Part shown: piece after piece, positions 11,268-32,446 of the stretch | Position numbering within the stretch: the first letter of the stretch is position 1 | How the letters are laid out: every line of letters begins with the position of its first letter | Virus genome (UHGV): UHGV-0119120 | Length of the DNA: 34,560 bases | From: a virus | Reading direction: 5' to 3' (one strand) | Notes under the pieces: model-generated | Told to the model about the DNA's origin: nothing | The model's input: the letters and a program-made list of their open reading frames with translations, nothing else | Database searches by the model: none | Position numbers and translations under genes: made by a program

Positions 11268-11589
11268 CGTAAGCCGTGTACGGGTCGACGAATGTCACAC
11301 GATAATCACGGTTCTGGTACGTCACGATATCGGCATCACGGCCAGTCTGCCCCTGCGTCAGCCGCTCAGTTGTCACGATGAGAATCGCGCCACTGATAAC
11401 CTGGCCGGACTGCATACGTCGGTTTTCGAGAGAGCGGTCAACGGTAACAACTCCGGCAAACTGCGTTTTAACTTCGCTGTCGCTGCCGATCCCGTCCTCG
11501 TCCACCGTTTGCGCGCGACGCGTTACCCACAGGTTGAAGTCGCAAAAATCGGGGTCAAAAAGTACGTCCGTCACATCAAGATTCGGCAT
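11200..11589 (-). CDS. virion protein (head-tail joining candidate)
   Basis: 129 aa ORF in the neck module. Confidence 0.4.
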   Translation of the reverse strand: MPNLDVTDVLFDPDFCDFNLWVTRRAQTVDEDGIGSDSEVKTQFAGVVTVDRSLENRRMQSGQVISGAILIVTTERLTQGQTGRDADIVTYQNRDYRVTFVDPYTAYGAGFVQAHCELLPFDGGTPVEQ

Positions 11590-12130
11590 CTTTATCCCTC
11601 ACAACATGGGTAATGGCTCTGCGATATTGCCCGGTGTCAATTAGCGGTTTCACCAGGTCGGTTCCGGGAGACTCGCCAGCAGCGCGCCGCGCAAGTTCCG
11701 CTTTTGCCCCTTTGCGGCCACGGCGTGCACGGGCTTCAACGGTGCTATCAGCAAGCGGTGTAAAGCCGGTAATGGTCATGTAACTCCTGACGCCATTCGC
11801 GGCCAGCGTTCCGGCGCGGTTAAGCGCTCTTTCTGCACCCGCCGCATTTCCATCAAGCGCAGCCTGCGCCGCTGCTTTGAGCTGCGGCACCGTCTGTTCC
11901 TCTACGGATTTAACGCCGGGGATCAGGTGCGGGCGTGGGGGTATGTTTTGCGCTGGTGAGCCGTATTCGTTGACGTAACCGATCCCGGCATTACCAAACG
12001 GAACATCCTCACGCTCGCTGTCTTCTTCCGGGATGCCGACCAGCACATCTTTTTTGGTTAACGACCTGAGCGCATCCAGAATGGCCTTAGCGTTATCCAC
12101 CCTCGTTGTTACACCGCTTTTGAAACTCAT
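11576..12130 (-). CDS. neck / virion morphogenesis protein
   Basis: 184 aa ORF; start overlaps the stop of the upstream DUF4054-like gene. Confidence 0.45.
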
Positions 12131-13883: not shown

Positions 13884-14366
13884 TTAAATCTTCCAGGAGA
13901 TTTCTGCATTGCCGTTAGCGTCACCGGCCCCTGTGAATTCGGCGTTGGTCAGCGCCACGTTTTTGCCACTGACGGACGTGGACATGAAGCCGCCCAGCGG
14001 CACTTTGATGGATTCATCAGTGGAGACGACAACGTATACCGGGTCGCCTTTTTTGATGGTGCTGGCATCAAAATCAGAACCGAGATTAACGGTCATGTAG
14101 CCACGCTTCATGGCGTCACCCGGGAAGTTCTTATCCGTCCCCACCTGGCGAACCATGTCTGGCTGCGATGTGGTCGGATACGGACGAACGTAGATCCCCT
14201 TCACCTTGTCGGCGGTGTCACCGTCCGCCAGCGGCACGAAAAAGCCGTCAGCGTCATATTTGCCAGCCAGACCATAGGCAGCGAAGGCGTTAGCGGATTT
14301 AAGGATCACCGGTTCGACGGTTAAGTCCTGCGGGCGAGAGATAGCCCCGGCAATGCCAACAGGCAT
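13884..14366 (-). CDS. head structural protein (DUF2190-like)
   Basis: 160 aa ORF immediately upstream of the capsid gene; first morphogenesis gene after the island. Confidence 0.5.
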   Translation of the reverse strand: MPVGIAGAISRPQDLTVEPVILKSANAFAAYGLAGKYDADGFFVPLADGDTADKVKGIYVRPYPTTSQPDMVRQVGTDKNFPGDAMKRGYMTVNLGSDFDASTIKKGDPVYVVVSTDESIKVPLGGFMSTSVSGKNVALTNAEFTGAGDANGNAEISWKI

Positions 14367-14507
14367 CCGGTACAGGAATGCAAGGCTATTATTTAATCAC
14401 CTGAAATATAAGGATTTATTTGCAGTCTGATTTTGCGTGTAGTCCAAAAACTGCTCTGTGATGTATGGCGCTGAATGGGGTAAGTTACTCAATACCAGAT
14501 GTGACAT

Positions 14508-14756
14508 TTAGCGGCACATCATCCGGTAGCGCTCACCTGACGTTCTGGGATCCTCGAATTTTGATTCTAACTGGTGTACTGGCGGAGAATAGCAACCGCT
14601 GGAAACCATATTGGCGATATCTGCCGGGCTGCGGGGGTCGTCATACAGCATAATTAACGCTTCTGCGATTTCTTTGGTGCTAGCCTCCACGCTTAAAGGT
14701 TTAGTCTTAGCCATGACTTTCTCCAGTGCGATGATGCGTTTTATCCGTTCATTCAT
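14508..14756 (-). CDS. hypothetical small protein
   Basis: 82 aa ORF; its ATG overlaps the stop of the DUF5681-like gene (ATGAATGA). Confidence 0.35.
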   Translation of the reverse strand: MNERIKRIIALEKVMAKTKPLSVEASTKEIAEALIMLYDDPRSPADIANMVSSGCYSPPVHQLESKFEDPRTSGERYRMMCR

Positions 14757-15183
14757 TATGTTCTCCTTCCAGACGGGCTATGCGTTCTTCTAGCTCAGTT
14801 ATTTCAATGACTTTCATCATGCTGGCTAGCCCATCAAGTATAACCTTACCTTGATCTGCTGATAACGTCCCAGCGGCTATAGCTTTCATCACCGAACGGG
14901 CCAGCGACTGTGGGTCTGAGTCATCGAGATCAAAGGGCGTTGGAGGCAATATTGGTTTGCTTGGCGGGACAATGCGATCGAGGATGATTCTGCACGCTGC
15001 CATATCGCCTTTTCTGGCTTTTTTTAGAATGGCATCCGCTGCATCCTCCGCCCCCTCCGCCAGAAGGTTACGCAATTCAGTAGCTGTTTTTGGTCTACCT
15101 CCGGGATTCCCGCTATTCCCCTTAGCAAACTGGCCGCGCTTATTCCGTGTTACCTGTTTTTGCCTGTTCTCAGGTGCTGCCAT
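14749..15183 (-). CDS. DUF5681-like phage protein
   Basis: 144 aa; N-terminal KRGQFAKGNSGNPGGRPK motif characteristic of DUF5681; coiled-coil C-terminus. Confidence 0.5.
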   Translation of the reverse strand: MAAPENRQKQVTRNKRGQFAKGNSGNPGGRPKTATELRNLLAEGAEDAADAILKKARKGDMAACRIILDRIVPPSKPILPPTPFDLDDSDPQSLARSVMKAIAAGTLSADQGKVILDGLASMMKVIEITELEERIARLEGEHNE

Positions 15184-15228
15184 TATTAATCACCTTCAAT
15201 AAGTTACAGATCCTCTCATGGGTAGCTA

Positions 15229-15801
15229 TCACTCTCTCTCCAGATCCTCAAGAGAGCAGCAAATATGCTGTGTTGAAACAAAATAGCTCAGCATGCTGCT
15301 TACCTTGTTTGACGCGACGTAATTATAATGCTCGACCATCTTTGCTAACGCGATAATCTCCCACCAGTAATGCTTAACTAGCTTTAGCGAAATTAAATAA
15401 GCCCGGCTATAGAGCTTGTCGCAATCATCTCCTGTTGCGCCTTGGTTCCTGTATTGCTCAAGCACTTTCCGAATATCGCTGGCGTCTCCTTTCCCTCCAT
15501 TTTCCAGTAGTTTTTCAGGTGGTTCGCCTGAGTAAAGGTGTTGTGCCATTACGCCAGAAAAAGAGACGACCATCTGCGCCAGTTCATCTTTTCTGACGGG
15601 GAGATGTGAGCATACCGCCCGGCAATTATCGACCTCTTTGCCGTTAGCCAGTCGAGCAATACGAAACTCATCAGCAATAGATATCTCAATTTGCCTAGCA
15701 CCCGTAAACCACGCAGCCATCGCGTGACCGGCTTCATGGATCGCGATATTTCTGTCCCACATAGGGCTTTTGCTGAATTCAACAATTACGCCATCACTCA
15801 C
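15229..15801 (-). CDS. standalone zinc-metalloprotease domain protein, FtsH (peptidase M41)-like, no AAA+ module
   Basis: 190 aa; AIHEAGHAMAAW matches the FtsH catalytic HEAGHA zinc-binding motif; downstream KDELAQMVVSFSGVMAQHLYSG and GDASDIRKV parallel the FtsH SRQKLESQISTLYGGRLAEEIIYG and ASNDIKVAT segments. No Walker motifs. Confidence 0.5.
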   Translation of the reverse strand: MSDGVIVEFSKSPMWDRNIAIHEAGHAMAAWFTGARQIEISIADEFRIARLANGKEVDNCRAVCSHLPVRKDELAQMVVSFSGVMAQHLYSGEPPEKLLENGGKGDASDIRKVLEQYRNQGATGDDCDKLYSRAYLISLKLVKHYWWEIIALAKMVEHYNYVASNKVSSMLSYFVSTQHICCSLEDLERE

Positions 15802-15863
15802 GCTGCTTACTCTCCGTTAGATCTGTCATTTAGTTAAATTTAACTGCGTTGGGGGAGTCTCCA

Positions 15864-16040
15864 TCACACACTCCCTTCAACGGCCATTGATTCCAGCGCC
15901 TTAGCCACCAGCCCACGTGCAATTTGGTGGATAGACGGCGCTACGCCAATATCGGAGCGCTGGCGTTCGCGCTCCTGGATCTTGCAGATTGCGGCGAACT
16001 GGTCGCCAGAGAGTAATACCGGCTTAACGTTTGGCTTTTT
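15864..16040 (-). CDS. hypothetical small basic protein (possible DNA-binding)
   Basis: Likely start MKKPNVKPVLLSGDQ inside the 95 aa track ORF; overlaps the stop of the upstream 64 aa ORF. Confidence 0.3.
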   Translation of the reverse strand, partial: KKPNVKPVLLSGDQFAAICKIQERERQRSDIGVAPSIHQIARGLVAKALESMAVEGSV

Positions 16041-16218
16041 CATCCTGTTCACTCCAGAACTTTGCATTCGCTTCGTTGACTTTTTCCAGATTGCGGCATT
16101 CGTTGTTGAAGTTGTTACGCATCCGCAATTGCTCGGCCTGTTCACGGCCAAAGAGTTTACGCCCGGCGCTTTGCGGGTTTCCTGCTGCTAATTTTGGGTC
16201 ATAAATAGCCATGCTCAT
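16024..16218 (-). CDS. hypothetical small protein
   Basis: 64 aa ORF packed between the 187 aa gene and the next small ORF. Confidence 0.3.
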   Translation of the reverse strand: MSMAIYDPKLAAGNPQSAGRKLFGREQAEQLRMRNNFNNECRNLEKVNEANAKFWSEQDEKAKR

Positions 16219-16224
16219 TGCTCC

Positions 16225-16788
16225 TTACTTCGTGCGATGCCAGAAACTGGCGTTGTCGGTGTTAATGCTGCGAATGGCGTCGCCTGTGGAGAGAATCTTC
16301 GGTGAAACGTTGTTAACTCGCATGTAGTCGCCAACCTGCTCCAGAACGTCGATAGCCTGATCAAGCTGAATCTCTGATAGCGGGGTCGGATGTACCGCAC
16401 TGAATGCCTCAGCGGGTGCGTAACGCAGCACATCAAGCGCAACAAGGCGAGGATCGGTATCAGGAAGGGCATTGTCATACTTTGGCGCTACAGCGCGTAC
16501 CAGGCGCATAAATTCAGCGTCCATTGACGTTGGCGCGGTGGAGGTCGTGGAAGCGCCGCTGCCACTGCGAGTAATCATGTCACTATCGCGGGTGTACATC
16601 CGACGCAGGCGGTCGCCAGTTGCAATGCGTGTTGCACGTTCCTGCTTAAGCGTCGTTGCAAGATTCGCAATGACGAGAGCCACAGGAAGCGAGCAGGTCA
16701 GCCTTTCGAACGTATCATCGGAGTAAGTCACCTCGACGGTACCACCAGCGTTATCACTTTCCAGATTAACATTGGTTATCTGTTTCAT
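16225..16788 (-). CDS. hypothetical protein, first gene of the island accessory module
   Basis: 187 aa ORF with AAGG RBS; preceded by a palindromic operator-like region. Confidence 0.45.
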   Translation of the reverse strand: MKQITNVNLESDNAGGTVEVTYSDDTFERLTCSLPVALVIANLATTLKQERATRIATGDRLRRMYTRDSDMITRSGSGASTTSTAPTSMDAEFMRLVRAVAPKYDNALPDTDPRLVALDVLRYAPAEAFSAVHPTPLSEIQLDQAIDVLEQVGDYMRVNNVSPKILSTGDAIRSINTDNASFWHRTK

Positions 16789-16823
16789 TGTTCATAACCT
16801 TTTGCGTTGTTTAAATTCTAATC

Positions 16824-16840
16824 ATTGCATAAATTGCAAT
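16824..16840. promoter_or_regulatory. perfect 17-bp palindrome ATTGCATAAATTGCAAT (candidate operator)
   Basis: Read directly; lies about 40-60 bp upstream of the 187 aa gene start, with a related half-site ATCATTGCG at 16851-16859. Confidence 0.35.
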
Positions 16841-16938
16841 GTTAGTAAATATCATTGCGTATATTGAAATGATAAATCGACGTGATACTATGACGGTGAT
16901 CCACCATTGTGTGATTGCATAAACATGGTTAACAAAAG

Positions 16939-16973
16939 CCCTCGCCTCTCCAGCGCGGGCTTTTTCTTTTCCG
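16939..16973. terminator. hairpin with flanking T/A runs (candidate bidirectional terminator between origin and accessory operon)
   Basis: AGCCCTCGC-CTCTCCA-GCGCGGGCT stem-loop (8/9 bp) followed by TTTTTCTTTT on the plus strand and preceded by AAAA. Confidence 0.4.
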
Positions 16974-17072
16974 CTCCGCAAAGTTGCCGTTTCCGCATAC
17001 TGTCGCTTAGGCGATGCCCCTCCAAATTCGTAATTACTCTCCGAAAAAAACTCTATAGATAAACAAAAACAT

Positions 17073-17365
17073 GTTGGTTCAGTTGGTTCAGTTGGTTCAA
17101 TTTGTAAAGATTGTTGTTTTATAAGGATTATTTCTTTCGGAGTGAACCAACAAAGCCCCATTTTGAACCAACAAACGCTATTTTCGTGTTGGTTCAGTGG
17201 GAAAGATTTACAGGCCAGCCAGAAAAGGGCGTTGGTTCAATAGCGGCATTTGTTGGTTCAAAATGGGGCTTTGTTGGTTCGGTGTTGGTTCACTTACAAG
17301 CATGTAAATGCATTAAATACATACACTTATATTAATTAAATAGTTACTGAACCAACTGAACCAAC
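17073..17365. repeat. iteron array, putative origin of replication
   Basis: At least 11 copies of GTTGGTTCA / TGAACCAAC, including three tandem copies at 17073-17099. A 29-bp perfect inverted repeat GAACCAACAAAGCCCCATTTTGAACCAAC sits at 17145-17173 and 17252-17280, with an AT-rich stretch at about 17300-17345. Directly downstream of the primase-helicase stop. Confidence 0.6.
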
Positions 17366-17390
17366 AAAAAAACATCTCGTATGTGTGTTT

Positions 17391-20171
17391 TTATTCTTCA
17401 CCCTCTATCTCGTCGGGTCGTAGCTGGAGCACATAAACGTTTATCTGGCGTCCATCAATTCGCGGGGATTTACGCTGATACCCCCTTCCGCTGGCTGGCG
17501 GTTTCAGCACCCCAGCCCCGGCCAGCACACGGGCAAACTGTTTCGCGTTGAATCCCTTCGCAATCTCACCTTCGAATGCTGCCGGGAACGTGTAGAACAC
17601 TATCGGATCAGCATCATGCGCCCCTTTCTGACGGTACCCGGCCAAATCCCGAATCGGCATGTCAGCCGGGTCATAAGGGTAAGGTGCAAATCGGCTCAGT
17701 CCGTATGCATTAAGAAACGCCTCTGCCTGCTCGATGATCTGCTTATGCTCACGGTTCCCCGTGCCAAACTCTTTCACCCAGGCGTTAAAGCCATGCTGGA
17801 TGGCGTCCCGGCTTTCCTGCTCCCCCCAGCCAGTGACAGGCATCCCCAGCACCAGCGCCGCCTCCAGAATAGCGAACCGCTCGCCTACACGATGAACCTG
17901 TTCGCCATAATCAGCAGGGATAAGACTACGCCAGCGCTCCTGCGCCGCTTTGACAGCTTGTTTTGCCTCCTGCTGGTGGCCTGCAAGCCATTTAATCCAT
18001 TCACGGCCTGCGGCTCCGTGGTTCGTCTGGTAAGCCTCTTTGAGTGCGTCGGCGTGTTGCTTCCCGTTCTGGTACTCATGGTGCGTTACTGATTTCTCCA
18101 TCGGTAAATTAAGCAATCGCACCAGTTGCCCGGCCTTAACTTTCAGCCCACCAGCAGAAAGAAACGTCTCAATGTCCATTTCCCCGGTACTGATCGCCAC
18201 GGTGCGCCAGCGCTTTAACTCACGGTTGCCGCCCTCCTTGGCCCCCTGTAGCTTTCCGGCACCGTTAAACAGCGTGTAAGCAGACGTAGCAACGTCTTTG
18301 GCGCTACTGCCCTGCCCCACTTCATCCAGCGGTAACAGGCTGTCGTTATGCGCTTCCGCTTCGTTGGCGATACCCAGCGCTGTACCGTACCAGGTAAGGC
18401 GCAAGGCATCCGGTTCACCGTATAAACTGCTGGCAATGTTGGCGGTGGTTGTCTTCCCTGCGCTGGACTGCTCGAAAAGATGCACGCCGAACCCGTCAGC
18501 GCCAACAAGCCCGATCAGCGGCGCAGAAAGCGCAGCAGCAACACCCAGCATCATTGACGGGTTTCCCAGCGCAAGACGCGCCACCGAATCACGCCAGCTT
18601 TCCGGCGTTCCACTGACGGTATAGCCACCAGCCGCCGCACTCCGACCACTGAATAACAGCGGTATCTCTGGCTCACCAATAACATCACCATCCGGCATGA
18701 TGTACGCCCCGTTGTGCCAGCCTGTGGTGTGGCTGATCTGCCATTCCTTGCCGCTACCAGTTCGCTGCAGCCAGTCGGCCAGAATTGCCCGCAACGATGG
18801 TTTGGTTGTCACACTGACACCGCCGTTTTTCAGCGTGCGCCATCCCTCACGGTCGCCAATGTCCTCCCATGGAAGCGCACGGGTAACTTGCCCCCGGTTG
18901 CCGGGGACGTCCCAACGCAGGATCAGAAAGCGCTGTCTGGCGTTATCACTCCCCGCACCAGCAATCTCCAGCGGAGAGCATAGCCACGCCTCGGTATTGA
19001 TAATTTCTCCTGTGTCTTTGTCCACTTTCGGGGTGATCCAGTGAATGCCATCCGCACGGCTCTCTACTCGCGGTTTCAGATCGTCGTCGATACCAAGTTT
19101 TTTCTTGCCGCCGTCGATAGCTGTCAGTGTCGCACCCACTTTCTTACCCTCCGGTTGATACATTGAGTCGTTAAATGCTGCTGTGGCCGCTTCGAGGCCG
19201 TATTGCTGGTGGTAGTCGTTCCAGTCCGCTTTATAGTCCACTGGTGGCATGGAAACCCAGCCAGAAACGGCTTTCGCGGCTTTCTCTGCGGCCTCCTTGC
19301 CAGTGTTAACTTTCACTCCTTTAATTCCGTCACTTTCGCCCATCTGGTCGTTATCTGCGGCAATGATGATTTGTGCCTGTGGGTACTTCCGGCGCATCAC
19401 TTCGGCAACGGGTAGCAGGTTGCCCGCGTCAATTGCTGCCACTGCCAGCGCGTCCGGGCGCATCAGGTGAACTGAAAGGGCCGTCGCCAGCCCCTCGGCA
19501 ATTAAAACGCTCTGCGGCGATTCTGGCGCGTTTACGGCATGATATGCCCCGCGCTTTGCTGAACCTGTCAGGAGTCGCTTCTCTCCCTGCGGTGTAATGG
19601 TTTGCGCTGCTGCCACTGCGCCGGATTCGTCCACCAGCTCCAGCAATAACGAACCATCAGGCATAACCGGATAGTTAAACCCGGTCAGCCCTTTTGATTG
19701 CAGGTAATCAGATTCGCCCTGTGTGGCACTCTGGCGCATTCCGGCATACAGACGGGCAAACGTAGCCCTTCGCTGCTCTGCGTCCCCTGCTGCCTGTTTC
19801 TGGCGCTCCTGCTCACGCTGCTGGCGGTCAGCTTCCAGTTGCTCCCTTCTATGGCTCGCTGCCACCGGGTCGGATTGCGCTGCCAGGTAATCAATACCCA
19901 GCACGTCAGCGGCAAGCTGTGCCGCCTCCGTAGTGTCGCAGTTGTTAACCCGCTTGATTAAATCCAGCCCGTCACCAGCGCCACACTGGTTGCAGATAAA
20001 GCTACCGCGCCCGTTGTCGTCGAATCTGAAACGGTCTTTTCCACCACATGCAGGGCATGGAGAATGGCGGCGCGATGAATCAGGCACGTCGATAGACAAC
20101 CCAGCCAGCACATAAGGCCAGCGCCCTGCTGCGGCGCTGGTCACTTCGCGGATAAGGTCGATATTACGCAT
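17391..20171 (-). CDS. primase-helicase (zinc ribbon + Toprim primase + P-loop NTPase)
   Basis: Likely start MRNIDLI with AGGAGG RBS. N-terminal CPACGGKDRFRF...CNQCG zinc ribbon; Toprim-like acidic motifs (LIAEGLATA, IIIAADNDQMGE); Walker A-like SSAGKTT. Confidence 0.8.
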   Translation of the reverse strand: MRNIDLIREVTSAAAGRWPYVLAGLSIDVPDSSRRHSPCPACGGKDRFRFDDNGRGSFICNQCGAGDGLDLIKRVNNCDTTEAAQLAADVLGIDYLAAQSDPVAASHRREQLEADRQQREQERQKQAAGDAEQRRATFARLYAGMRQSATQGESDYLQSKGLTGFNYPVMPDGSLLLELVDESGAVAAAQTITPQGEKRLLTGSAKRGAYHAVNAPESPQSVLIAEGLATALSVHLMRPDALAVAAIDAGNLLPVAEVMRRKYPQAQIIIAADNDQMGESDGIKGVKVNTGKEAAEKAAKAVSGWVSMPPVDYKADWNDYHQQYGLEAATAAFNDSMYQPEGKKVGATLTAIDGGKKKLGIDDDLKPRVESRADGIHWITPKVDKDTGEIINTEAWLCSPLEIAGAGSDNARQRFLILRWDVPGNRGQVTRALPWEDIGDREGWRTLKNGGVSVTTKPSLRAILADWLQRTGSGKEWQISHTTGWHNGAYIMPDGDVIGEPEIPLLFSGRSAAAGGYTVSGTPESWRDSVARLALGNPSMMLGVAAALSAPLIGLVGADGFGVHLFEQSSAGKTTTANIASSLYGEPDALRLTWYGTALGIANEAEAHNDSLLPLDEVGQGSSAKDVATSAYTLFNGAGKLQGAKEGGNRELKRWRTVAISTGEMDIETFLSAGGLKVKAGQLVRLLNLPMEKSVTHHEYQNGKQHADALKEAYQTNHGAAGREWIKWLAGHQQEAKQAVKAAQERWRSLIPADYGEQVHRVGERFAILEAALVLGMPVTGWGEQESRDAIQHGFNAWVKEFGTGNREHKQIIEQAEAFLNAYGLSRFAPYPYDPADMPIRDLAGYRQKGAHDADPIVFYTFPAAFEGEIAKGFNAKQFARVLAGAGVLKPPASGRGYQRKSPRIDGRQINVYVLQLRPDEIEGEE

Positions 20172-20505
20172 GGTTGCCTCCTGCCACGGTCGCGCCCATA
20201 TCATTAATCATGCTTTGCCATATCTCGCGCCCGACGTCAGTCAATCCGTCCTTAGTGACGCAACGATCAAGAAGCTCGATCCCCACGGTTTCCCACTGCG
20301 GGTAGAACACTTTCATGGCTGCCAGTGTGTAGCTATCGATCAGGCTGCGAACGCCTTTTACTCCATTGACGATTTCCACACGGACGGCGAGGCCGTCCGC
20401 ATCAACCATGAAATAGTCCCCGCCGCTGGTGGCGGTAATGTGGTTATACAGTGCCGACGCATACTTATTCGCCAGCGCATTCAGTCGGAAATTTTTAGTA
20501 ATCAT
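20164..20505 (-). CDS. hypothetical protein (replication operon)
   Basis: 113 aa ORF; stop overlaps the primase start (ATGCGTAA). Confidence 0.4.
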   Translation of the reverse strand: MITKNFRLNALANKYASALYNHITATSGGDYFMVDADGLAVRVEIVNGVKGVRSLIDSYTLAAMKVFYPQWETVGIELLDRCVTKDGLTDVGREIWQSMINDMGATVAGGNHA

Positions 20506-20514
20506 GTCGCCCCC

Positions 20515-21141
20515 TCAGTGCGCCAGCGGCATTTCAGGCCAGCCGTTTTCATCCAGTTCAGCTATAAAGCTGTTGTGAAGTTCAGCAAGCGTTTCACGCC
20601 CGAACGGGGTCAGCTCGCCGCGCTCCGTGTCGATCATGGCCTGATAAAAAACAATGGCGTTCGCTGTTCCCTGCTCAACGCCGTAGCGCTCAATCATTGC
20701 GCCCTCGATGTTGTTCGCCATCGCCAGCCGTTCAGCAAACGGGTAAACCACCATGCCCGCATTACCATTGGAGTAAATCGCCACCTGCGATGATGTGCCG
20801 TCAGCCTCAGTAACCGTGGTGGTGCCGTTCTCGCGCTTCATCTCAGAAACGAACGTCGCAGCAATCAGCCAGCGCCACATAGTGACGTTATGCTGCGCGG
20901 TGAAGTCGAACCAGCCACGCTCCCCGCCGTCAGCCACTGCCAAATGCAGGGCAAATCCTTCATCGGTCTTATTGTCATACTCACCCGCATCCAGACGTAC
21001 TACGACTTTTTCGTAGTTGATAAGAGCAACATGCTCATACATTCCGGCATCATTGCGGGTCATGATATTGACGCCGTGCGGTGTGGCTTCGGCGTGGAAC
21101 AGGTCGGGATTTCCCGGTTTAATGGTCAGTATATTGCTCAT
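20515..21141 (-). CDS. hypothetical protein (replication operon)
   Basis: 208 aa ORF, tightly packed in the operon. Confidence 0.45.
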   Translation of the reverse strand: MSNILTIKPGNPDLFHAEATPHGVNIMTRNDAGMYEHVALINYEKVVVRLDAGEYDNKTDEGFALHLAVADGGERGWFDFTAQHNVTMWRWLIAATFVSEMKRENGTTTVTEADGTSSQVAIYSNGNAGMVVYPFAERLAMANNIEGAMIERYGVEQGTANAIVFYQAMIDTERGELTPFGRETLAELHNSFIAELDENGWPEMPLAH

Positions 21142-21359
21142 GCTTTGCCCTCCCGATATTCACGCATTACATGGTCAGCTAGCTTGCTTTCAGCCTCGCT
21201 CATTGCTTCGGGCACACCGTGTAACAGCGTCAGAATGGAACCTATAAGGCGTGGTAAATCGGGATCTGTTTTATTGGTGGTGCTCTCCAGCCACATGGAC
21301 AAAACAGCCTGTGCCTGTTCAATCTGGCAGGCAGCATCAATCAGTTGTAACTGGCTCAT
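21138..21359 (-). CDS. hypothetical small protein
   Basis: 73 aa ORF with 4-nt overlaps to neighbours. Confidence 0.35.
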   Translation of the reverse strand: MSQLQLIDAACQIEQAQAVLSMWLESTTNKTDPDLPRLIGSILTLLHGVPEAMSEAESKLADHVMREYREGKA

Positions 21360-21619
21360 GCGCTGCCCTCCGCATCAATTCTGGCTATATCGACAATCGT
21401 CAGGACTTTACTAAGCCAGCAATACGCGATGGCTGCTTGCTCAACTTCGAGGAGTGGTAATAAATCGGTCATAACGTGAGCCAGCCCATTGCGGGCGCGG
21501 GTCATGCGTTCTGCGGTACGCTCTGCCAGCGTGAAAGAGTCAGGGTACGGCTGTTCGCGGGATAGCATCGCCTCGGCCTCAAGATCTGCAGGATGGCGAT
21601 AGATGGTATGAATGTTCAC
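21356..21619 (-). CDS. hypothetical small protein
   Basis: 87 aa ORF with GTG start, overlapping neighbours. Confidence 0.35.
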   Translation of the reverse strand: MNIHTIYRHPADLEAEAMLSREQPYPDSFTLAERTAERMTRARNGLAHVMTDLLPLLEVEQAAIAYCWLSKVLTIVDIARIDAEGSA

Positions 21620-21795
21620 GCTGCCACCTCCTGAATACGAGTAATACGAACGTGCTTATAACCGCCTTTATTCGCCAGTAGTTGCGCAGTCGATTTAGCT
21701 GTTTCTGGACTGGTGCTAGTCATGGTGTAGTGAATGCCGACGGTGTTACCGCGCTTGTTAACAGCGTATCCGTCGATCTGGAAGGTTTTACGCAT
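21616..21795 (-). CDS. hypothetical small protein (59 aa, below ORF-track cutoff)
   Basis: ATG overlaps the stop of the recombinase gene (AATGCGTAA); translation MRKTFQIDGYAVNKRGNTVGIHYTMTSTSPETAKSTAQLLANKGGYKHVRITRIQEVAA. Confidence 0.3.
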   Translation of the reverse strand: MRKTFQIDGYAVNKRGNTVGIHYTMTSTSPETAKSTAQLLANKGGYKHVRITRIQEVAA

Positions 21796-22666
21796 TTCCG
21801 ACCTCCATTGCTAAACGGGACTGGATAGCTGCCGCTTTACTGCCTAATTGCAGGTAAGTACGAGTTATCGCAGGGTTGCTATGACCCAGCATTTCAGAGG
21901 CCACTAATAGGCCCTGTTCGCCACCTGCGGACATGAGGTTAAAGGCGGCTATTTTGCGGCTTGAGTAGGCGCTCAGGCGCAATTTAGCGTTAATGAAACG
22001 GGTAAACCACGCCATGACGCCATGAAGTTTGCGCCAGATGGTTTGGCGAGTAACGCTACCTTCCAGACGTTGACAACGGTTACTTTCGATTTGAGAGCGG
22101 GAAAATACCAGGTCGTCCTCCACCAGATTCCGATCCTGACGGTCACGCAGCCGCTTGATAATGCCGGGGGGTAACTGTTTGGTGTCGTGCTTGACGTCAG
22201 CCTTAGCCACCAGCCCGAACACAATCGCCTGTTCTTCGTCGTTCATATCGGCGGCCAGTTCATCACAGCCGATACTATCCCACTTCATGTAGGCGATATG
22301 GTCAGCGGCGAGCCGCGCGGCGTCCTTGCGCTGCTGGCGCACAATTTCAATACCTTTGCGGGTTGCCCGCGCTTCTGCGGCTTTGGTCTGTTTGGAAACG
22401 ATAATTGTCGCCTGTCCAGTTTCCCAATTGATGCAGGAATAGCGCAGGTTGCAAACGTCGCTGGTACGCCAGCCGGTTACGGTCGCAATATCCCACCAGA
22501 GCAACACCCAATCGGGCTGTGTCTGCTGGATGCGCTCGCGTAGCTTGCGCTGCTCGTCACGGTCATAGACAGGGGTCATGGTGCGACTGCCCTTTGTGCT
22601 CGCCGCTTTAACGACATTGCCGCGCAGCTCGCGGGCTTTGGCTGTCAGAGTCTGGAGGTTAAACAT
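21788..22666 (-). CDS. tyrosine recombinase / integrase-like protein (second recombinase)
   Basis: Likely start MFNLQTL at 22666; C-terminal LGHSNPAITRTYLQ resembles the His...Tyr catalytic end of tyrosine recombinases; candidate box I Arg in TGWRTSDV. Confidence 0.55.
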   Translation of the reverse strand: MFNLQTLTAKARELRGNVVKAASTKGSRTMTPVYDRDEQRKLRERIQQTQPDWVLLWWDIATVTGWRTSDVCNLRYSCINWETGQATIIVSKQTKAAEARATRKGIEIVRQQRKDAARLAADHIAYMKWDSIGCDELAADMNDEEQAIVFGLVAKADVKHDTKQLPPGIIKRLRDRQDRNLVEDDLVFSRSQIESNRCQRLEGSVTRQTIWRKLHGVMAWFTRFINAKLRLSAYSSRKIAAFNLMSAGGEQGLLVASEMLGHSNPAITRTYLQLGSKAAAIQSRLAMEVGNA

Positions 22667-22847
22667 GACGCACCTCCGGCACTGGCAGACGTGCGGCCAG
22701 AGACAAAATAAAGTGCGGCGCAAGGATGCGGCGGGCTTCGCGTTCGGTCGCAGCCTCAACGGACAGACGGCAAGGTTTGGCTTTTTTATCGTGGCGATTC
22801 AGCGCGAGAAAGCGCCAGGTGAATTTTGAGTGTGCGGATCTAGCCAT
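22659..22847 (-). CDS. small protein upstream of the recombinase (possibly Icd-like)
   Basis: 62 aa ORF; stop overlaps the recombinase ATG (CATGTTTAA); ends ...FILSLAARLPVPE. Family assignment is from memory only. Confidence 0.3.
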   Translation of the reverse strand: MARSAHSKFTWRFLALNRHDKKAKPCRLSVEAATEREARRILAPHFILSLAARLPVPEVRHV

Positions 22848-23167
22848 TTTTAGCGGCTCCTAGAACATATTGAAGGAGTCTCGCCAGATGCTGCTAAACA
22901 TGGGTGGCGAGACGTGACGGGGTTAGCAGACTGGCGTTCTAGGAAACCAGCAGGCGTTAAGCCTCCCCACCACGCCCCGCCATAAATCGGGGGTATGGTT
23001 GGTTTTCGGGCGTAAAAATACCGCTATACGGAAATCAGCGGCTACCCGCTAGAACGTTCAGGCTGCTAAACCCGGCACCCGTTTTGTGAGGTGCGAAATA
23101 ATCATAACCACACTACCCCGTTAAGCGCAAGGGAAATATCCCCTGCGCCCACAATGCAAACTTGTTA

Positions 23168-24238: not shown

Positions 24239-24402
24239 CGTCCTAATGCTCTTTCAAACCAAGAATGTAGGACATAGTAAATTGTGGTTAATGGCAAGTC
24301 GATATAAAGGCCGGGTTATTGGCTTCGGTGCCAATATCATTTCTCCGAAATTTCATAACGCCTGTAATCGCTCGTTTCCCCATCTTGGGGACATTTCAAA
24401 AC

Positions 24403-24523
24403 TGCGAATCAAAGTGCGAATGGAACTGCGAATTCGCAAAGAGAGAGCGCCGCTCAAAGCAGGCCGGATAAGGCTTCGCGGACATATTGCGAATGCGAAT
24501 CCACCAGAAACGAAACGCGAATC
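24403..24523. repeat. cluster of TGCGAAT heptamer repeats (candidate operator array)
   Basis: TGCGAAT at 24403, 24415 and 24427 (12-bp phasing), the third within the palindrome TGCGAATTCGCA; further copies at 24488, 24495 (GCGAAT) and 24517 (CGCGAAT). Lies 165-285 bp upstream of the lipoprotein gene. Confidence 0.4.
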
Positions 24524-25079
24524 ACCCATAAACAAAACCGATACGCAGGGAGCGTACTGCCCGTATTCAATCGGCCGAAAAGTCAGCCGATTAAAATCAT
24601 GCCCGGCTATCCCCTGAAATTTCAGGAGATCGAGAGCCACCAGCAGAGAACCGTTCATGCCATCGGTAACTTGCAGCCCGAAGCTCAAATCTGAGCGTTG
24701 ACCGCCAGCCAGAAGAAACCATTTTAAATCCCGCGCCTTCTCTTTGGATGAACAGGGTTACTCCCCGTAATGCTGTGAACTGCCACGATGATTCGGGGTT
24801 GTGTTGCGCTGGCCTTTGAGTCCCGCACAAACACTGACCCACAAAATTTTTGTAGGTGACTGGCCCTCTTGATGAGGTGCTGTTTTGCGTAACCCTTAAT
24901 GAGTTGTGCAAAGGCTCAACCCTTTAAAAGGGTTGCCTAACCACCGGCGATAGTAATAACCGCCAACCTATGAACACTATGAACACCTTTGAGCATTTTT
25001 CTATAAACATTCCACTACTGCCCTATTTGATGCCTTTCTCTGGCTGGCCTGTGTAAGTTACCGTTGCTGGGAACTGACA

Positions 25080-25115
25080 ATAAAAAAGGCTTGCCCCTCT
25101 CAGGTAACAAGCCTT
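25080..25115 (-). terminator. rho-independent terminator downstream of the AlpA-like gene
   Basis: Minus-strand hairpin AAGGCTTG-(14 nt)-CAAGCCTT followed by TTTTTT, about 20 nt after the stop at 25133. Confidence 0.5.
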
Positions 25116-25132
25116 GTCTATCGCTCTGGATC

Positions 25133-25487: not shown

Positions 25488-26717
25488 TTACACAACCAGC
25501 CTCAAGCCCTTATCGCCGCTGGTCTCCAGTATTTCGCCACACTCTGCGGCCTCGATAAAGTCCCCCCACCATTGCATTAAAACCCGGCGTTTTTCCAGAT
25601 AGTCGCTACGGTTATAAACATTTCGAATCGCATCGGCGCTTTTGTGAGCGAGTGCAGCCTCAATCACATCAGGGTTGAACCCCTCGTCATTTAAAACTGT
25701 AGATGCCAACGCCCTGAACCCATGAGGAACAATCAGCCCTTTAAACGACGTTTTGTGTATCCCGGCCTGAGTCGCACAGCGTGAGATCGGCTTATTTTCT
25801 TTTCGCCATGAGGGGAAAACATAATCGCAGCGCTTCCACTTTTCGGCCTCTTTAAGCACGTTTATAGCCTGGCTCGATAATGGGACTACGTGGGGGCGCT
25901 TTCCTTTCATCCGGCTTGCAGGGATTTGCCAGATTGAGTTATCAAAATCAATCTCATTCCAGAGAGCGCCGCCAGCCTCCGAAGGCCGGACCATCGTAAT
26001 GATCTGAAATAATAATGCCAGCTTTGATGGCTCCCATAAGCTCAACTCGTTCCATGCGCTTAAAAATTCGGGCAACCGCTCTTTCTGTAAAGTCGCTCTT
26101 GGCTCGTTTTTTTCAGCCGGGAATGCTTTACCAATTTTCGATAGCGGGTTGTGCTCAATAACCCCAATGTTTACCGCATAATCCATTATGGCGTTGATGG
26201 TAATAACCATTTTCGTAAGCGTTGATGGCCTTTCCCTGAAAGGTTTAAAAGCCTGAATAGTATCGGCTGCGTTTATTTTATGTACCGTGGTATGCCTAAA
26301 AATCGTGGAAAGATGCTTCAACGTCACATTGTGCGATTCAAGCGTGTTGCTTCTCGCACCTTCTTTAATCTTGATTTTTAGCCATTCATCGGCAACGGCC
26401 TGAAATGACTGCGCGTACATTTTACGCTGTTCATTCCTGGCATCTTTTTTGACTTCGTTCGGATCTATCCCTCGCGCTACCATACGGCGCAGTTTCGAAC
26501 GTTCCTCCCTCGCTTCGGACAAAGTAAACTCCGGGTATCGTCCAATAGTATAGGTTTGTCTCTTCTTCGTTACCGGGTGTACATACCGAAAACGCCATGA
26601 CTTACCGCCCCGGCTTGTGATGTAAAGCAACAAACCGAAACCATCGTGCAAACTGAAATCCTTGCCCTGTGCCTTCGCGCTTTTCACTTCGACGCTAGTT
26701 AGTGGCCTAACAATCAT
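25488..26717 (-). CDS. int: P4-type tyrosine integrase
   Basis: 409 aa; N-terminal ...LHDGFGLLLYITSRGGKSWRFRY is the typical arm-binding (DUF4102-like) signature of P4-family integrases. Confidence 0.75.
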   Translation of the reverse strand: MIVRPLTSVEVKSAKAQGKDFSLHDGFGLLLYITSRGGKSWRFRYVHPVTKKRQTYTIGRYPEFTLSEAREERSKLRRMVARGIDPNEVKKDARNEQRKMYAQSFQAVADEWLKIKIKEGARSNTLESHNVTLKHLSTIFRHTTVHKINAADTIQAFKPFRERPSTLTKMVITINAIMDYAVNIGVIEHNPLSKIGKAFPAEKNEPRATLQKERLPEFLSAWNELSLWEPSKLALLFQIITMVRPSEAGGALWNEIDFDNSIWQIPASRMKGKRPHVVPLSSQAINVLKEAEKWKRCDYVFPSWRKENKPISRCATQAGIHKTSFKGLIVPHGFRALASTVLNDEGFNPDVIEAALAHKSADAIRNVYNRSDYLEKRRVLMQWWGDFIEAAECGEILETSGDKGLRLVV

Positions 26718-26931
26718 TCAACACCTCTCTGGCTACCATGTAATGCAAACGGCGCATGATTCTCTTTCTAGTCCCTCATGTACCGAATCAAAGCGAAATC
26801 CGGCGAATAAATCCGCACATGTTCGGAGTGTCATTTTTATGGTTCAGGCCAGTAACGCCGTATGATTCCGAACGATAACGCACTGATTAATAGATATTAG
26901 TTGCATAAGGTACAGATATGCAGTCATTGGA

Positions 26932-31894: not shown

Positions 31895-32446
31895 TTAGCC
31901 CATCATTTTTTTATACGCTTCTGCAGCCTGCTCCGGCGTTAAGTTGGTAATTTCTGTTCTGACTGGTCCTCCGTCAGCACCAGTCACTTCATTTTTGACA
32001 TTGTCTTTAAACGCCTGAACAGAAACATGACGCCCGAGCAACTCAAGGTTTTTAACCTTATCAGGCCATTTGATTTTCTTCAGAAGTGCGGCGCTATCTG
32101 CGGATACTATCTCCACGACATCCATTCCTGATAGCGTTGTGCGCCATACCTTAGGCCAGTCTTTAATGGGCTTTAGCTCACCGTTTTGCAGGAGAATGTC
32201 GAGCACATCCATCTGGTCGATTTCAATAAGGCGATTAAGTACATATTCTGCATTAATACCAACAAGATCATTGCGTTGCGCTTTCAGTTCGGCGATTCTG
32301 AATTGTATGTCAGGTTTTGACAGGTTTTCGGATGCGGTACGGTTAGCTGTCTTTGCGCTGTACCCCGCCCGAATAGCCGCTTGTGTGGCGTTTAAATCGA
32401 TGAGGTACTCGCGACAGAACATCTCTTGTTTGTCGGTGAGTGCCAT
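31895..32446 (-). CDS. terS: terminase small subunit
   Basis: 183 aa; N-terminal [34 protein letters not shown]... matches the Terminase_2-type HTH N-terminus. Confidence 0.7.

What the first reader, a model, noticed from the sequence alone, without database searches (positions are those of the whole stretch)
14508..16788. Accessory module downstream of the origin may encode helper-interference functions
After the origin the island encodes a 187 aa unknown protein, two small proteins, the FtsH-like protease, a DUF5681-like protein and an 82 aa protein, with a palindromic operator-like site (16824-16840) upstream. In characterised Gram-negative PICIs the equivalent post-origin region encodes packaging-redirection functions; that parallel is an inference, I recognise no specific family except DUF5681.
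Basis: inference. Interest (0 to 1): 0.45.

Follow-up and report, generated by a model that had tools for sequence, protein, structure and literature searches.

The report
Embedded phage satellite's late-gene module
These six genes are the late operon of a 12.5-kb parasitic element lodged inside a prophage's head-gene cluster.

Summary
Window 14508-16788 (minus strand) carries six real, tightly spaced genes: 187 aa, 62 aa, 59 aa, 190 aa, 144 aa (DUF5681) and 82 aa. An operator-like repeat cluster lies upstream.

The island (about 14383-26902) is a PICI-type satellite with a P4-type integrase, an AlpA-like gene, C4 immunity RNA, a DUF927 primase and an iteron origin. It is inserted at the 5' end of the cement gene of an E217/XM1-like prophage, which makes it a helper-embedded satellite, a published kind (PMC10111431).

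The 190-aa protein is a standalone FtsH protease-domain (M41) homologue (hhalign 98%).

Homologues of the DUF5681 protein sit in the small-terminase slot, just upstream of the large terminase, in every phage inspected among 231 records with a match. In sister E. coli islands the same slot holds a DUF2280 protein. That protein is 65% identical to a helper's own small terminase and keeps its C-terminal tail, which I infer binds the large terminase.

So a satellite-encoded packaging-specificity cassette is the best reading. The caveat is that this window's DUF5681 and 82-aa proteins lack that tail. The cassette is 97%/87% (protein) identical to a Klebsiella island's, so its compatibility with this helper is unproven.

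The other four proteins have no assignable role. No defence-system or Rpp match was found.

Verdict: new variant of a known kind, moderate interest.

The parts
16821..16874 (.). Operator-like region: two 24-nt direct repeats. The first contains the perfect palindrome ATTGCA-N5-TGCAAT (16824-16840). A further half-site lies at 16914-16923. A TAGAAT -10-like hexamer, seen by eye, lies just downstream on the minus strand.
   Evidence: The palindrome is conserved in six closely related E. coli islands but not in the diverged Klebsiella islands. The consensus scan called no minus-strand promoter here.
16934..16964 (.). G+C-rich hairpin (AAAAGCCCTCGC / GCGCGGGCTTTT) between the origin and the module. 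It is probably a terminator that isolates the module from primase transcription.
   Evidence: Inverted repeat I13. An analogous hairpin follows the primase gene in Klebsiella L018. The terminator scan did not call it.
16225..16788 (-). 187-aa protein, the first gene of the late module. It is conserved in every member of this satellite family. Function unknown.
   Evidence: It has 40 homologues across Enterobacterales, with a conserved C-terminal half. It is always the first gene after the primase and origin. It has no Pfam, NCBIfam, PHROG, PADLOC or PDB match. The AF2 model (pLDDT 68) has no significant fold match.
16024..16212 (-). 62-aa protein, function unknown.
   Evidence: An AAGGAG site lies 9 nt upstream of the ATG at 16212. 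It is 80% identical to the 61-aa ORF of the diverged island L017. It is annotated in sister islands.
15864..16043 (-). 59-aa protein, MKKPNVKPVLLSG.... By eye it fits a ribbon-helix-helix pattern; this was not confirmed.
   Evidence: It is 72% identical to the 57-aa ORF of L017 and 95% identical to that of EC2001. It has no Pfam or PDB match.
15229..15801 (-). 190-aa standalone homologue of the FtsH protease (peptidase M41) domain. It has the HEAGH motif and an invariant Asp106. It has no AAA+ ATPase module and no matched membrane-anchor region.
   Evidence: The profile search found 69 relatives, all 54-293 aa long. H22, E23, H26, G83 and D106 are invariant across 50 sequences. 32 of the 50 match PF01434, best E 4.7e-27. 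hhalign against E. coli FtsH residues 408-601 gives probability 98.1% and E 6.7e-14. Taken alone, the protein is below Pfam's threshold.
14749..15183 (-). 144-aa DUF5681 protein, an orphan small-terminase-slot homologue with no large terminase gene in the island.
   Evidence: Pfam DUF5681, E 7e-11. tblastn finds it in 231 phage records. In every phage inspected, the homologue lies just upstream of the large terminase gene. Full-length alignment is A3. The closest relatives sit in small integrase-bearing islands that lack a large terminase.
14508..14756 (-). 82-aa partner ORF, translationally coupled to the DUF5681 gene through an 8-nt overlap and a strong AAGGAG site.
   Evidence: It is co-inherited with DUF5681 in Klebsiella (87% identical in L018 and L007; a 31%-identical 64-aa partner in L009). 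It has no family or PDB match.
14504..15884 (.). Variable cassette (M41 gene, DUF5681 gene, 82-aa gene). DNA homology with the sister islands breaks at both ends of this segment.
   Evidence: absent at DNA level from 5,426 complete E. coli genomes. Sister islands carry M41+DUF2280, M41+a 62-aa ORF, a baseplate cluster+DUF2280, or IS5-disrupted versions.
14383..14507 (.). Conserved right-end segment of the island, presumably an attachment-site arm, between the 82-aa gene and the att core.
   Evidence: 90-99% identical in the four E. coli sister islands.
14363..14382 (.). Right att repeat, GCATCCGGTACAGGAATGCA, overlapping the cement gene's ATG at 14366.
   Evidence: A 20-bp overlap appears when the two window flanks are aligned to the empty-site prophage L003.
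26903..26922 (.). Left att repeat, GCATAAGGTACAGATATGCA (16 of 20 identical to the right copy), next to the integrase gene.
17072..17372 (.). Replication origin: about 14 GAACCAAC iterons in both orientations. This is context for the module.

Best explanation
The region is the late (post-origin) operon of a 12.5-kb PICI-type phage satellite. The satellite is integrated, co-oriented, at the 5' end of the cement gene inside the head operon of an E217/XM1-like prophage, its presumptive helper.

Inferred course of events: after helper induction the satellite excises using its integrase and AlpA-like protein. It then replicates from its iteron origin with its own primase. It expresses this operon from a promoter overlapped by the ATTGCA/TGCAAT operator repeats.

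The terminal cassette (DUF5681 protein plus its coupled 82-aa partner) is the satellite's own packaging-specificity factor. It is an orphan small-terminase analogue that marks satellite DNA for the helper's large terminase. SaPI TerS does this, and the tail-bearing DUF2280 protein of the sister islands very probably does too.

The standalone FtsH-type metalloprotease domain and the 187-, 62- and 59-aa proteins are accessory or regulatory parts of the same operon, with targets unknown.

Shown here: gene content, homologies, synteny, cassette exchange, embedding.
Inferred: every functional step, including that DUF5681 is a small terminase and that it works with this helper.
For: Island identity and embedding:
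- An empty-site prophage (L003) has the DUF2213 and cement genes abutting.
- The island has a P4-type integrase, a weak AlpA-like match (16.8 bits, below Pfam's 21-bit cut-off) and a DUF927 primase.
- It has origin iterons and a C4 RNA.

Operon structure:
- Gene spacings are gaps of 12, 65 and 45 nt and overlaps of 20 and 8 nt.
- Shine-Dalgarno sites precede each gene.
- The one minus-strand terminator-like call (15417-15399) lies inside the 190-aa gene and is taken as spurious.

DUF5681 as a small-terminase-slot protein:
- 231 phage records hold a homologue. In the four inspected in detail it lies 0-1 small ORF upstream of the large terminase gene: Bas79, Seszw_1, Vibrio 1.276.O and Skarpretter.
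- Bas79 has no other small-terminase candidate annotated.
- Alignment A3 is full length.

Orphan DUF5681 genes, each with a small coupled ORF, recur at the end of integrase- and replicase-bearing islands that lack a large terminase. These are found in Klebsiella, Pseudomonas and a metagenome.

Slot equivalence:
- L014/L015 have the same 190-aa gene (99%) followed by DUF2280 instead of DUF5681.
- DUF2280 is the native small-terminase-slot protein, directly upstream of the ECONIH5 helper's 540-aa large terminase. That terminase is 96.5% identical to the window's.
- The island DUF2280 is 65% identical to it. Identity runs as a gradient: 50% over the first 60 residues, 69% in the middle, 82% over the last 39.
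- It retains the C-terminal tail shared by all three small-terminase types that sit next to this large terminase.

No cos-like DNA is shared between island and helper. This fits an island that needs its own recognition factor.

Literature: the post-origin region of PICIs holds interference genes and sometimes terS (PMC6092414, PMC6739421). The late zone of helper-embedded PICIs is dynamic (PMC10111431).
Against: - The window's DUF5681 and 82-aa proteins do not carry the helper small-terminase tail. Their local alignments are no better than 4.5-29% of shuffles.
- The tail occurs only once in the window, in the helper's own small terminase.
- DUF5681 shows no detectable homology to DUF2280 or Terminase_2.
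- Its AF2 model is all-helical (pLDDT 72). It has no significant match to solved structures, and its only matches in the viral-structure library are unnamed or uncharacterised proteins.
- No phage record annotates a DUF5681-type homologue as a small terminase.
- One proteomic study found a DUF5681 protein in purified virions (2 peptides, PMC8954984). That is not expected of a small terminase.
- The cassette is 97%/87% (protein) identical to one in a K. pneumoniae chromosomal island and is absent from complete E. coli genomes. It may therefore be tuned to a different helper.
- Four of the six proteins have no assignable function.
- The ET791 and ABWA45 helpers use a different terminase (PBSX type), yet the ET791 island still carries DUF2280. 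Cassette and helper are therefore not strictly matched.
Confidence: 0.5

Rival explanations
1. Mismatched passenger. The DUF5681 and 82-aa cassette was recently recombined in from a Klebsiella-type satellite, replacing the tail-bearing DUF2280 gene. It is not functional with this E. coli helper, so the module currently has little or no effect on helper packaging.
For: - The cassette is 97%/87% (protein) identical to K. pneumoniae island L018.
- It is absent from 5,426 complete E. coli genomes.
- Homology with sister islands breaks exactly at 14504 and 15884.
- It lacks the tail shared by every small terminase next to this large terminase, including the sister islands' DUF2280.
Against: - Both ORFs are intact, with good ribosome-binding sites and preserved translational coupling.
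- The same pair is kept in several independent islands.
- Skarpretter has a DUF5681-like gene upstream of a large terminase whose nuclease half is homologous to the helper's (E 1e-26). So this pairing of families is not excluded.
Confidence: 0.2
2. Defence or competitor-exclusion cargo. The variable part of the module, especially the standalone M41 protease, protects the host and helper against other phages or kills infected cells. P4 hotspots and some PICIs carry immune systems of this kind.
For: - The position is variable and cassette-like, at the island end.
- An Abi_2 gene follows the DUF5681 pair in Klebsiella islands L009-L011.
- Satellites are known hotspots of antiviral systems (PMC9122126 abstract, seen).
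Against: - No module protein matches any of the 5,027 PADLOC models.
- In sister islands the M41 gene alternates with captured baseplate genes, not with known defence genes.
- DUF5681 homologues sit in phage packaging modules.
Confidence: 0.12
3. Mainly regulatory. The 187-aa protein (named 'XRE family regulator' by NCBI), the 59-aa RHH-like protein and perhaps the DUF5681 protein are DNA-binding regulators. They act on the ATTGCA/TGCAAT repeats and on helper late promoters, in the way P4 delta acts, rather than on packaging.
For: - Operator-like repeats lie directly upstream.
- Sources name the 187-aa family as an XRE regulator.
- The 187-, 62- and 59-aa trio is the invariant core of the late zone, whereas the packaging-like cassette is dispensable in ABWA45.
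- The DUF5681 model has a short three-helix N-terminal bundle.
Against: - No HTH or RHH family, PDB sequence or fold match was found for the 187-aa or 59-aa proteins.
- The XRE name was not reproduced by any search here.
- This reading does not explain the terminase-adjacent synteny of DUF5681 in phages.
Confidence: 0.18

Closest known systems
Helper-embedded PICIs (HE-PICIs), Tommasini, Mageeney & Williams 2023 (PMC10111431)
   Same: - A PICI-type satellite integrated inside, and co-oriented with, the late operon of its helper prophage.
- Four zones in the same order: integrase/AlpA, then an immunity zone with a C4/CI-type RNA, then primase and origin, then a dynamic late zone.
- Sister islands have captured helper late genes (baseplate cluster, a 184-aa head-gene homologue), as that paper describes.
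   Different: - The target is the first codons of the cement gene of an E217/XM1-like, myovirus-type head module. This site is not named anywhere in the paper's text, which holds no mention of 'cement', 'decoration', 'DUF2213' or 'DUF2184'; the figure listing the 14 lambda-cognate sites is not held.
- The doubled TGTATTGC attP motif, described as unique to that clade, is absent.
- Whether the integrase belongs to that clade was not tested.
- The late zone carries terminase-slot genes, whereas 11capE lacks terS and is presumed to be packaged through cos.
SaPI operon I / SaPI-encoded TerS (described in PMC6092414)
   Same: - An orphan small-terminase gene lies at the 3' end of the post-origin operon of a satellite that has no large terminase.
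- In the sister islands the satellite copy is a diverged paralogue of the helper's small terminase (65% identity). The DNA-binding end has diverged and the C-terminal tail is conserved.
   Different: - In this window the gene is from an unrelated family (DUF5681) with no demonstrated small-terminase activity and without the helper's tail.
- No capsid-size genes (cpmA/B) or Ppi were recognised.
- The host is Gram-negative.
EcCICFT073 RppA/RppC packaging redirection (PMC6739421)
   Same: The position is the same (genes after the origin), and so is the proposed outcome: redirecting the helper terminase to satellite DNA.
   Different: - No sequence similarity of any module protein to the Rpp chains in the PDB at E<=1 to 5.
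- No cos-like sequence is shared with the helper.
- The mechanism would be replacement of the small terminase rather than formation of an Rpp-TerS heterocomplex.
Satellite phage P4
   Same: P4-type integrase with an arm-binding domain, an AlpA-like gene, a C4/CI-type immunity RNA, a large primase-helicase next to an iteron origin, and a similar size (about 12 kb).
   Different: - No Psu, Sid or Delta homologue was detected in the proteins scanned.
- The helper is not P2-like.
- The element is embedded in the helper.
FtsH (peptidase family M41)
   Same: The 190-aa protein aligns with the whole FtsH protease domain (E. coli residues 408-601). It keeps HEXXH and the downstream Asp.
   Different: - It has no AAA+ ATPase module and no matched membrane-anchor region.
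- It is a 190-aa standalone domain.
- It belongs to a family of 54-293-aa proteins.
- Its substrate and oligomeric state are unknown.

Membership tests
Helper-embedded PICI (PMC10111431) | Integrated within the late-gene region of a prophage and co-oriented with it | tested here: met
   The empty-site comparison places the island between the DUF2213 stop codon and the body of the cement gene. All island genes lie on the same strand as the helper late genes.
Helper-embedded PICI (PMC10111431) | Four ordered zones: integration (Int, AlpA), Bro/immunity, replication, late | tested here: met
   Int and a weak AlpA-like match (16.8 bits, below Pfam's 21-bit cut-off). C4 RNA and an Icd-like ORF. DUF927 primase and iterons. 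Late module (this finding). No Bro-N domain protein was identified in the island.
Helper-embedded PICI (PMC10111431) | Doubled TGTATTGC motif flanking the attP centre | tested here: not met
   The window has a single TGTATTGC, at 15450, inside the M41 gene. None lies near either island end. Chance expectation is 1.07.
Helper-embedded PICI (PMC10111431) | Integrase belongs to the HE-PICI clade | not tested
   No reference integrase (11capE) was fetched. Only 4 of 5,426 E. coli genomes carry a close relative of this integrase gene, all at the cement site.
Helper-embedded PICI (PMC10111431) | Excision and replication after helper induction | not testable with these tools
   This needs induction with att-site qPCR or sequencing.
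Gram-negative PICI (PMC6092414) | int, alpA, pri-rep and ori in one direction; about 10-15 kb; no full set of virion genes | tested here: met
   12.5 kb. No capsid or tail family was found among the island proteins scanned.
Small terminase (TerS) | Gene lies immediately upstream of the large terminase gene in phage genomes | tested here: met
   True of the DUF5681 homologues in the phages inspected. The window's own copy is an orphan with no large terminase in the island.
Small terminase (TerS) | Homology to a recognised TerS family or solved TerS structure | tested here: not met
   No TerS Pfam, PHROG or PDB hit. hhalign against DUF2280 and Terminase_2 gives probability below 1%. Foldseek against the PDB and the viral library gives no TerS hit.
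Small terminase (TerS) | C-terminal segment matching the one used by the helper's own TerS (presumed TerL-binding tail) | tested here: not met
   Tail: TG.DGGP..T..TNLT...AAE.YKKMMG. It is present in the helper TerS of the window, EC2001 and ECONIH5 and in the sister-island DUF2280. It is absent from DUF5681, from the 82-aa protein and from all six frames of the island.
Small terminase (TerS) | Binds a pac/cos site and stimulates the large terminase | not testable with these tools
   This needs biochemistry or genetics.
Pfam DUF5681 (PF18932) | Score above the gathering threshold | tested here: met
   43 bits against a 27.5-bit cut-off, E 7e-11, residues 15-73.
Peptidase M41 (FtsH protease domain) | HEXXH zinc motif plus a downstream acidic ligand, and domain-wide homology | tested here: met
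   H22, E23, H26 and D106 are invariant in 50 relatives. 32 of the 50 hit PF01434. hhalign gives 98.1% probability and E 6.7e-14 over 149 columns against FtsH 408-601. The protein alone scores 15.5 bits, below the 29.9-bit cut-off.
FtsH proper (AAA+ protease) | N-terminal membrane anchor and AAA+ ATPase module | tested here: not met
   The protein is 190 aa. Only the protease domain aligns. All 69 relatives are 54-293 aa long.
Rpp (redirecting phage packaging) proteins | Sequence similarity to RppA/RppC | tested here: not met
   No Rpp chain (PDB 6HLK, 6HN7 per PMC6739421) appears among PDB matches at E<=1 to 5 for any of the six proteins. This is sequence only; fold similarity for the small proteins was not tested.
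Known anti-phage defence systems (PADLOC-DB 2.0) | Match to any defence-protein model | tested here: not met
   No hits at E<=0.01 for the six module proteins or for four other island proteins.
P4-like satellite | psu, sid and delta capsid-size/transactivation genes | tested here: not met
   None appeared among the Pfam or PHROG results for the island proteins scanned. The C4/CI-type RNA and the P4-type integrase are present.

The most novel reading that the evidence does not exclude
DUF5681 plus its small, translationally coupled partner is a previously unrecognised two-part small terminase (packaging-specificity determinant). It is used both by about 45-kb phages and by a broad set of integrase-bearing satellites in Enterobacterales and Pseudomonas.

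In this family of helper-embedded satellites, packaging-specificity cassettes (DUF5681 or DUF2280) are exchanged horizontally as modules alongside captured baseplate genes. The standalone FtsH-type protease would be a new helper-interference effector. This lineage would also have evolved embedding in the helper's head operon independently of the published HE-PICI integrase clade.
Probability: 0.25. Interest if true: 0.65.

Novelty: new variant of a known kind. Interest (0 to 1): 0.45.

Why it matters
If the cassette is a satellite small terminase, three things follow.
1. DUF5681, now a domain of unknown function cited in a single paper, would gain a function.
2. Gram-negative satellites would be shown to swap packaging-specificity genes as modules between genera.
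3. Helper-embedded parasitism would extend from lambda-type helpers to E217/XM1-like prophages. The capsid module of such prophages is present in about 15% of complete E. coli genomes.

The comparison of tail-bearing DUF2280 with tail-less DUF5681 gives a directly testable handle on how a satellite recruits a helper's large terminase.

If the cassette is inert, this is an ordinary variable late zone of a known kind of element.

Tried and rejected
- Direct repeats of 8 nt or more flanking the island: none. The att repeat is imperfect and was found only by comparison with the empty site.
- Sequence search of DUF5681, DUF2280, the 190-aa, 187-aa (profile), 82-aa, 59-aa and 62-aa proteins against all PDB chains: nothing significant.
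- AF2 model of DUF5681 (pLDDT 72) against the PDB and the viral-structure library: the PDB gave nothing (best E about 1). The viral library gave only uncharacterised, unnamed or DUF5681-named proteins (three at E<=0.001), with no TerS match.
- AF2 model of the 187-aa protein (pLDDT 68) against the PDB: best E 0.1, a partial COMMD-like match judged meaningless.
- 190-aa protein against FtsH using the shallow profile: only the 19-residue motif aligned. This was resolved only with the deep profile.
- PADLOC and NCBIfam: no hits for the module.
- tblastn of the 190-aa protein against 50,697 phage records: no match.
- Shared cos-like DNA between island and helper: none longer than 24 nt.
- Similarity of the island M41 protein to the helper's PhageMetallopep, and of the ET791 island DUF2280 to that helper's 251-aa TerS-slot protein: none.
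- Promoter and terminator consensus scan: it called neither a promoter for the module nor the hairpin at 16934.
- Rejected: the 116-aa ORF at 16811-17161, which is an artefact of the origin iterons, and the mechanical 64-aa and 95-aa ORF boundaries.
- Considered and dropped: 187 aa = P4 Psu (similar size, but no PDB profile hit); 187 aa = XRE regulator (the name was not reproducible).

Full report
**1. What is there**

Every gene in the window lies on the minus strand. Reading that strand from high to low coordinates, the window holds two groups of genes from one prophage, separated by an inserted island.

The first prophage group:
- Rz, Rha
- a Terminase_2 small terminase (32446..31895)
- a 540-aa large terminase
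- portal, MuF
- a DUF2213 protein (ends at 26932)

The inserted block:
- a P4-type integrase (26717..25488)
- an AlpA-like ORF (weak match, below Pfam's cut-off)
- a 356-aa lipoprotein-like ORF
- a C4 antisense RNA (22987..22900, 75 bits)
- an Icd-like ORF
- a second integrase-like gene and several small ORFs
- a 937-aa Zn-ribbon/Toprim/DUF927 primase (20204..17391)
- an origin with about 14 GAACCAAC iterons (17072-17372)
- the six genes of the finding

The second prophage group follows: cement protein (14366..13884), major capsid protein and myovirus-type tail genes.

**2. The island is embedded in its presumptive helper**

An E. coli prophage without the insert (L003) has the DUF2213 gene directly abutting the cement gene. 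The two window flanks align to it with a 20-bp overlap. That overlap corresponds to an imperfect direct repeat in the window, 14363-14382 and 26903-26922, 16 of 20 identical.

The island is therefore about 14383-26902 (12.5 kb). It separates the body of the cement gene from the Shine-Dalgarno site and the first six or so codons of the longer cement ORF.

This is the helper-embedded PICI configuration published by Tommasini et al. 2023 (PMC10111431), including their four-zone gene order. Two things differ here:
- The target is an E217/XM1-type head module rather than a lambda cognate.
- The doubled TGTATTGC attP motif, which they report as unique to their clade, is absent.

The helper's capsid region occurs in 799 of 5,426 complete E. 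coli genomes. The island's integrase gene occurs in only four, always at this site.

**3. The observation**

The six ORFs are real.
- Sister islands and ribosome-binding sites fix the two small genes at 62 aa (16212..16024) and 59 aa (16043..15864).
- Each protein has homologues in other genera or in diverged islands.
- Spacing is tight and Shine-Dalgarno sites precede each gene. The only minus-strand terminator-like call lies inside the 190-aa gene and is probably spurious. Together these indicate one operon.
- Upstream, a G+C-rich hairpin (16934-16964) follows the origin.
- After it come two 24-nt repeats containing the exact palindrome ATTGCA-N5-TGCAAT (16824-16840).

The palindrome alone is not beyond chance: 12 such palindromes in the window against 8.4 expected. 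The clustering of 4 of the window's 17 half-sites within 120 bp is beyond chance.

**4. The 190-aa protein**

Taken alone, it matches M41 and M50B only at the HEAGH motif, below threshold. A profile search of 1.84 billion cluster representatives found 69 relatives, all 54-293 aa long. In an alignment of 50 of them:
- H22, E23, H26, G83 and D106 are invariant.
- 32 members individually match PF01434, best E 4.7e-27.
- The profile aligns with E. coli FtsH residues 408-601 at 98.1% probability and E 6.7e-14.

It is therefore a standalone homologue of the FtsH protease domain, without an ATPase module or a matched membrane anchor. 'FtsH-like' is correct. Its target is unknown.

**5. The DUF5681 protein and its partner**

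The Pfam match is significant. tblastn finds 231 phage records with a homologue. In those inspected, the homologue occupies the small-terminase slot:

| Phage | Gene order |
|---|---|
| Bas79 | HNH, 147-aa homologue, 52-aa ORF (8-nt overlap), large terminase |
| Seszw_1 | homologue directly upstream of the large terminase |
| Vibrio 1.276.O | homologue directly upstream of the large terminase |
| Skarpretter | homologue, 139-aa ORF, large terminase |

. The alignment is full length. Bas79 has no other small-terminase candidate annotated.

The closest relatives (36-97% identity) are instead orphans in small integrase- and replicase-bearing islands that lack a large terminase. They usually have a small overlapping downstream ORF. 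These islands are found in K. pneumoniae (L009-L011, L018), Pseudomonas (L025, L026) and a metagenome (L027). A 97%-identical copy also sits in a K. variicola locus (L007/L008) next to an insertion-sequence transposase, with no island integrase or replicase visible.

The window's pair is 97% and 87% (protein) identical to that of K. pneumoniae L018. At DNA level the cassette 14504-15884 is absent from all complete E. coli genomes.

**6. Sister islands show what the slot is for**

The late zone of this satellite family has three parts, in order:
1. The 187-, 62- and 59-aa genes.
2. A variable block: the M41 gene, a captured baseplate cluster, or IS5-disrupted versions.
3. A terminal slot before att: DUF2280, DUF5681 plus the 82-aa gene, or a 62-aa ORF.

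. L014/L015 have the same 190-aa gene (99%) followed by DUF2280.

In the ECONIH5 helper, a DUF2280 protein sits directly upstream of the 540-aa large terminase. That terminase is 96.5% identical to the window's.

The island DUF2280 proteins are 65% identical to this helper protein. Identity runs as a gradient: 50% over residues 1-60, 69% over 61-118 and 82% over 119-157.

The last 36 or so residues (...TG.DGGP..T..TNLT...AAE.YKKMMG) are shared by all three small-terminase types found next to this large terminase: Terminase_2 in the window and in EC2001, and DUF2280 in ECONIH5. The island DUF2280 shares them too. I infer that this tail is the segment that binds the large terminase.

A diverged DNA-binding end combined with a conserved tail is the pattern expected of a satellite small terminase of the SaPI type.

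**7. The caveat for this window**

- Neither DUF5681 nor the 82-aa protein carries the tail. Their alignments are matched by 4.5-29% of shuffles.
- The tail occurs nowhere in the island in any frame.
- DUF5681 is not detectably related to DUF2280 or Terminase_2.
- Its AF2 model finds no small-terminase fold.
- A DUF5681 protein was detected at low coverage in purified Salmonella phage virions (PMC8954984).
- Island and helper share no cos-like DNA.

So the packaging reading rests on synteny and on slot equivalence. Compatibility with this particular helper is open.

**8. The remaining proteins**

The 187-aa family is always the first gene after the origin. Its C-terminal half is highly conserved. 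NCBI's name for it, 'XRE family transcriptional regulator', was not reproduced by Pfam, NCBIfam, a PDB profile search or a fold search.

The 62-aa and 59-aa proteins have no matches. The 59-aa protein fits a ribbon-helix-helix pattern by eye only.

No module protein matches PADLOC or the Rpp chains in the PDB.

**9. Verdict**

The region is the dynamic late zone of a helper-embedded, PICI-type satellite. Its terminal cassette is best read as a satellite packaging-specificity factor (confidence about 0.5).

Rival explanations:
- a mismatched cassette recently acquired from Klebsiella (0.2)
- a mainly regulatory module (0.18)
- defence cargo (0.12)

The kind of element is known. The helper type, the integration site, the DUF5681/DUF2280 cassette exchange and the standalone M41 domain make it a new variant. 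Interest is moderate.

Noticed in passing
window 14363-14382 and 26903-26922 (island about 14383-26902): The whole island is inserted into the head operon of the surrounding prophage. It separates the cement gene from its Shine-Dalgarno site and first six or so codons. The reconstructed attP core would be TTGCAT-TCCTGTACCTT-ATGCAA, an inverted repeat around the crossover.
   Followed up: yes
window 31898-32017 (C-terminus of the helper small terminase); L029 3990-4607; L030 5043-5516: Small terminases with different bodies (two only 29%-identical Terminase_2 proteins and a DUF2280 protein) share one C-terminal tail of about 36 residues when they sit next to the same 540-aa large terminase (94-97% identical). 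This is a modular, presumably terminase-binding tail. The 540-aa large terminase itself has no Pfam match.
   Followed up: partly
window 22900-22987 (-): C4 antisense RNA (Rfam RF01695, 75 bits) lies just upstream of an Icd-like 62-aa ORF (22847..22659). This is a P1/P4-type RNA immunity module in the island.
   Followed up: no
L024 2342-5577 (E. coli EC2001 island); L018 9761-12944 (K. pneumoniae island): Sister satellites carry a captured five- to six-gene baseplate-hub cluster (Dit-like, plug, spike and others) in the slot where this window has the M41 gene. This suggests that satellites remodel the helper's tail tip.
   Followed up: partly
L019 and L020 (K. pneumoniae): The same satellite family is embedded downstream of the cement gene in Klebsiella E217-like prophages. 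No major capsid gene is called after it, so it may interrupt the capsid gene there.
   Followed up: no
window 16811-17161 (-): The 116-aa ORF containing 'EPTEPTEPT' is an artefact of translating the GAACCAAC origin iterons. It is not a gene.
   Followed up: yes
window 23168-24238 (-): A 356-aa ORF with a lipoprotein-type signal (...FPIVSC) is conserved in five of the sister islands inspected. It has no Pfam or PADLOC match and lies in the low-GC part of the island (44-48% GC).
   Followed up: no
window 21788-22759 (-): A second, short tyrosine-recombinase-like gene (annotated as 292 aa in relatives) lies inside the island and is conserved across the family. Its role is unknown.
   Followed up: no
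L030 5548-6168 (ECONIH5 helper) versus window 32447-33130: The ECONIH5 helper has a PhageMetallopep (PF18894) gene immediately upstream of its small terminase. The window's helper lacks it and has only a 78-aa plus-strand ORF there. The helper arrangement (metallopeptidase, then small terminase) parallels the island arrangement (M41, then terminase-slot gene), but the proteins are unrelated.
   Followed up: partly
window 15115-15041 (DUF5681 residues 23-47) and 14540-14508 (C-terminus of the 82-aa protein): The DUF5681 N-terminal motif (SGNPGGRPKTATELRNLL...) and the C-terminus of the 82-aa protein (...GERYRMMCR) show weak similarity to the helper small-terminase tail. Neither is significant: 4.5% and 18.5% of shuffles reach the same score.
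   Followed up: yes
L002 10356-10949 versus window 11576-12130: The ECONIH5 island carries a diverged copy (81% nucleotide identity) of a helper 184-aa head/neck gene next to an IS5. This is an example of late-gene capture.
   Followed up: no
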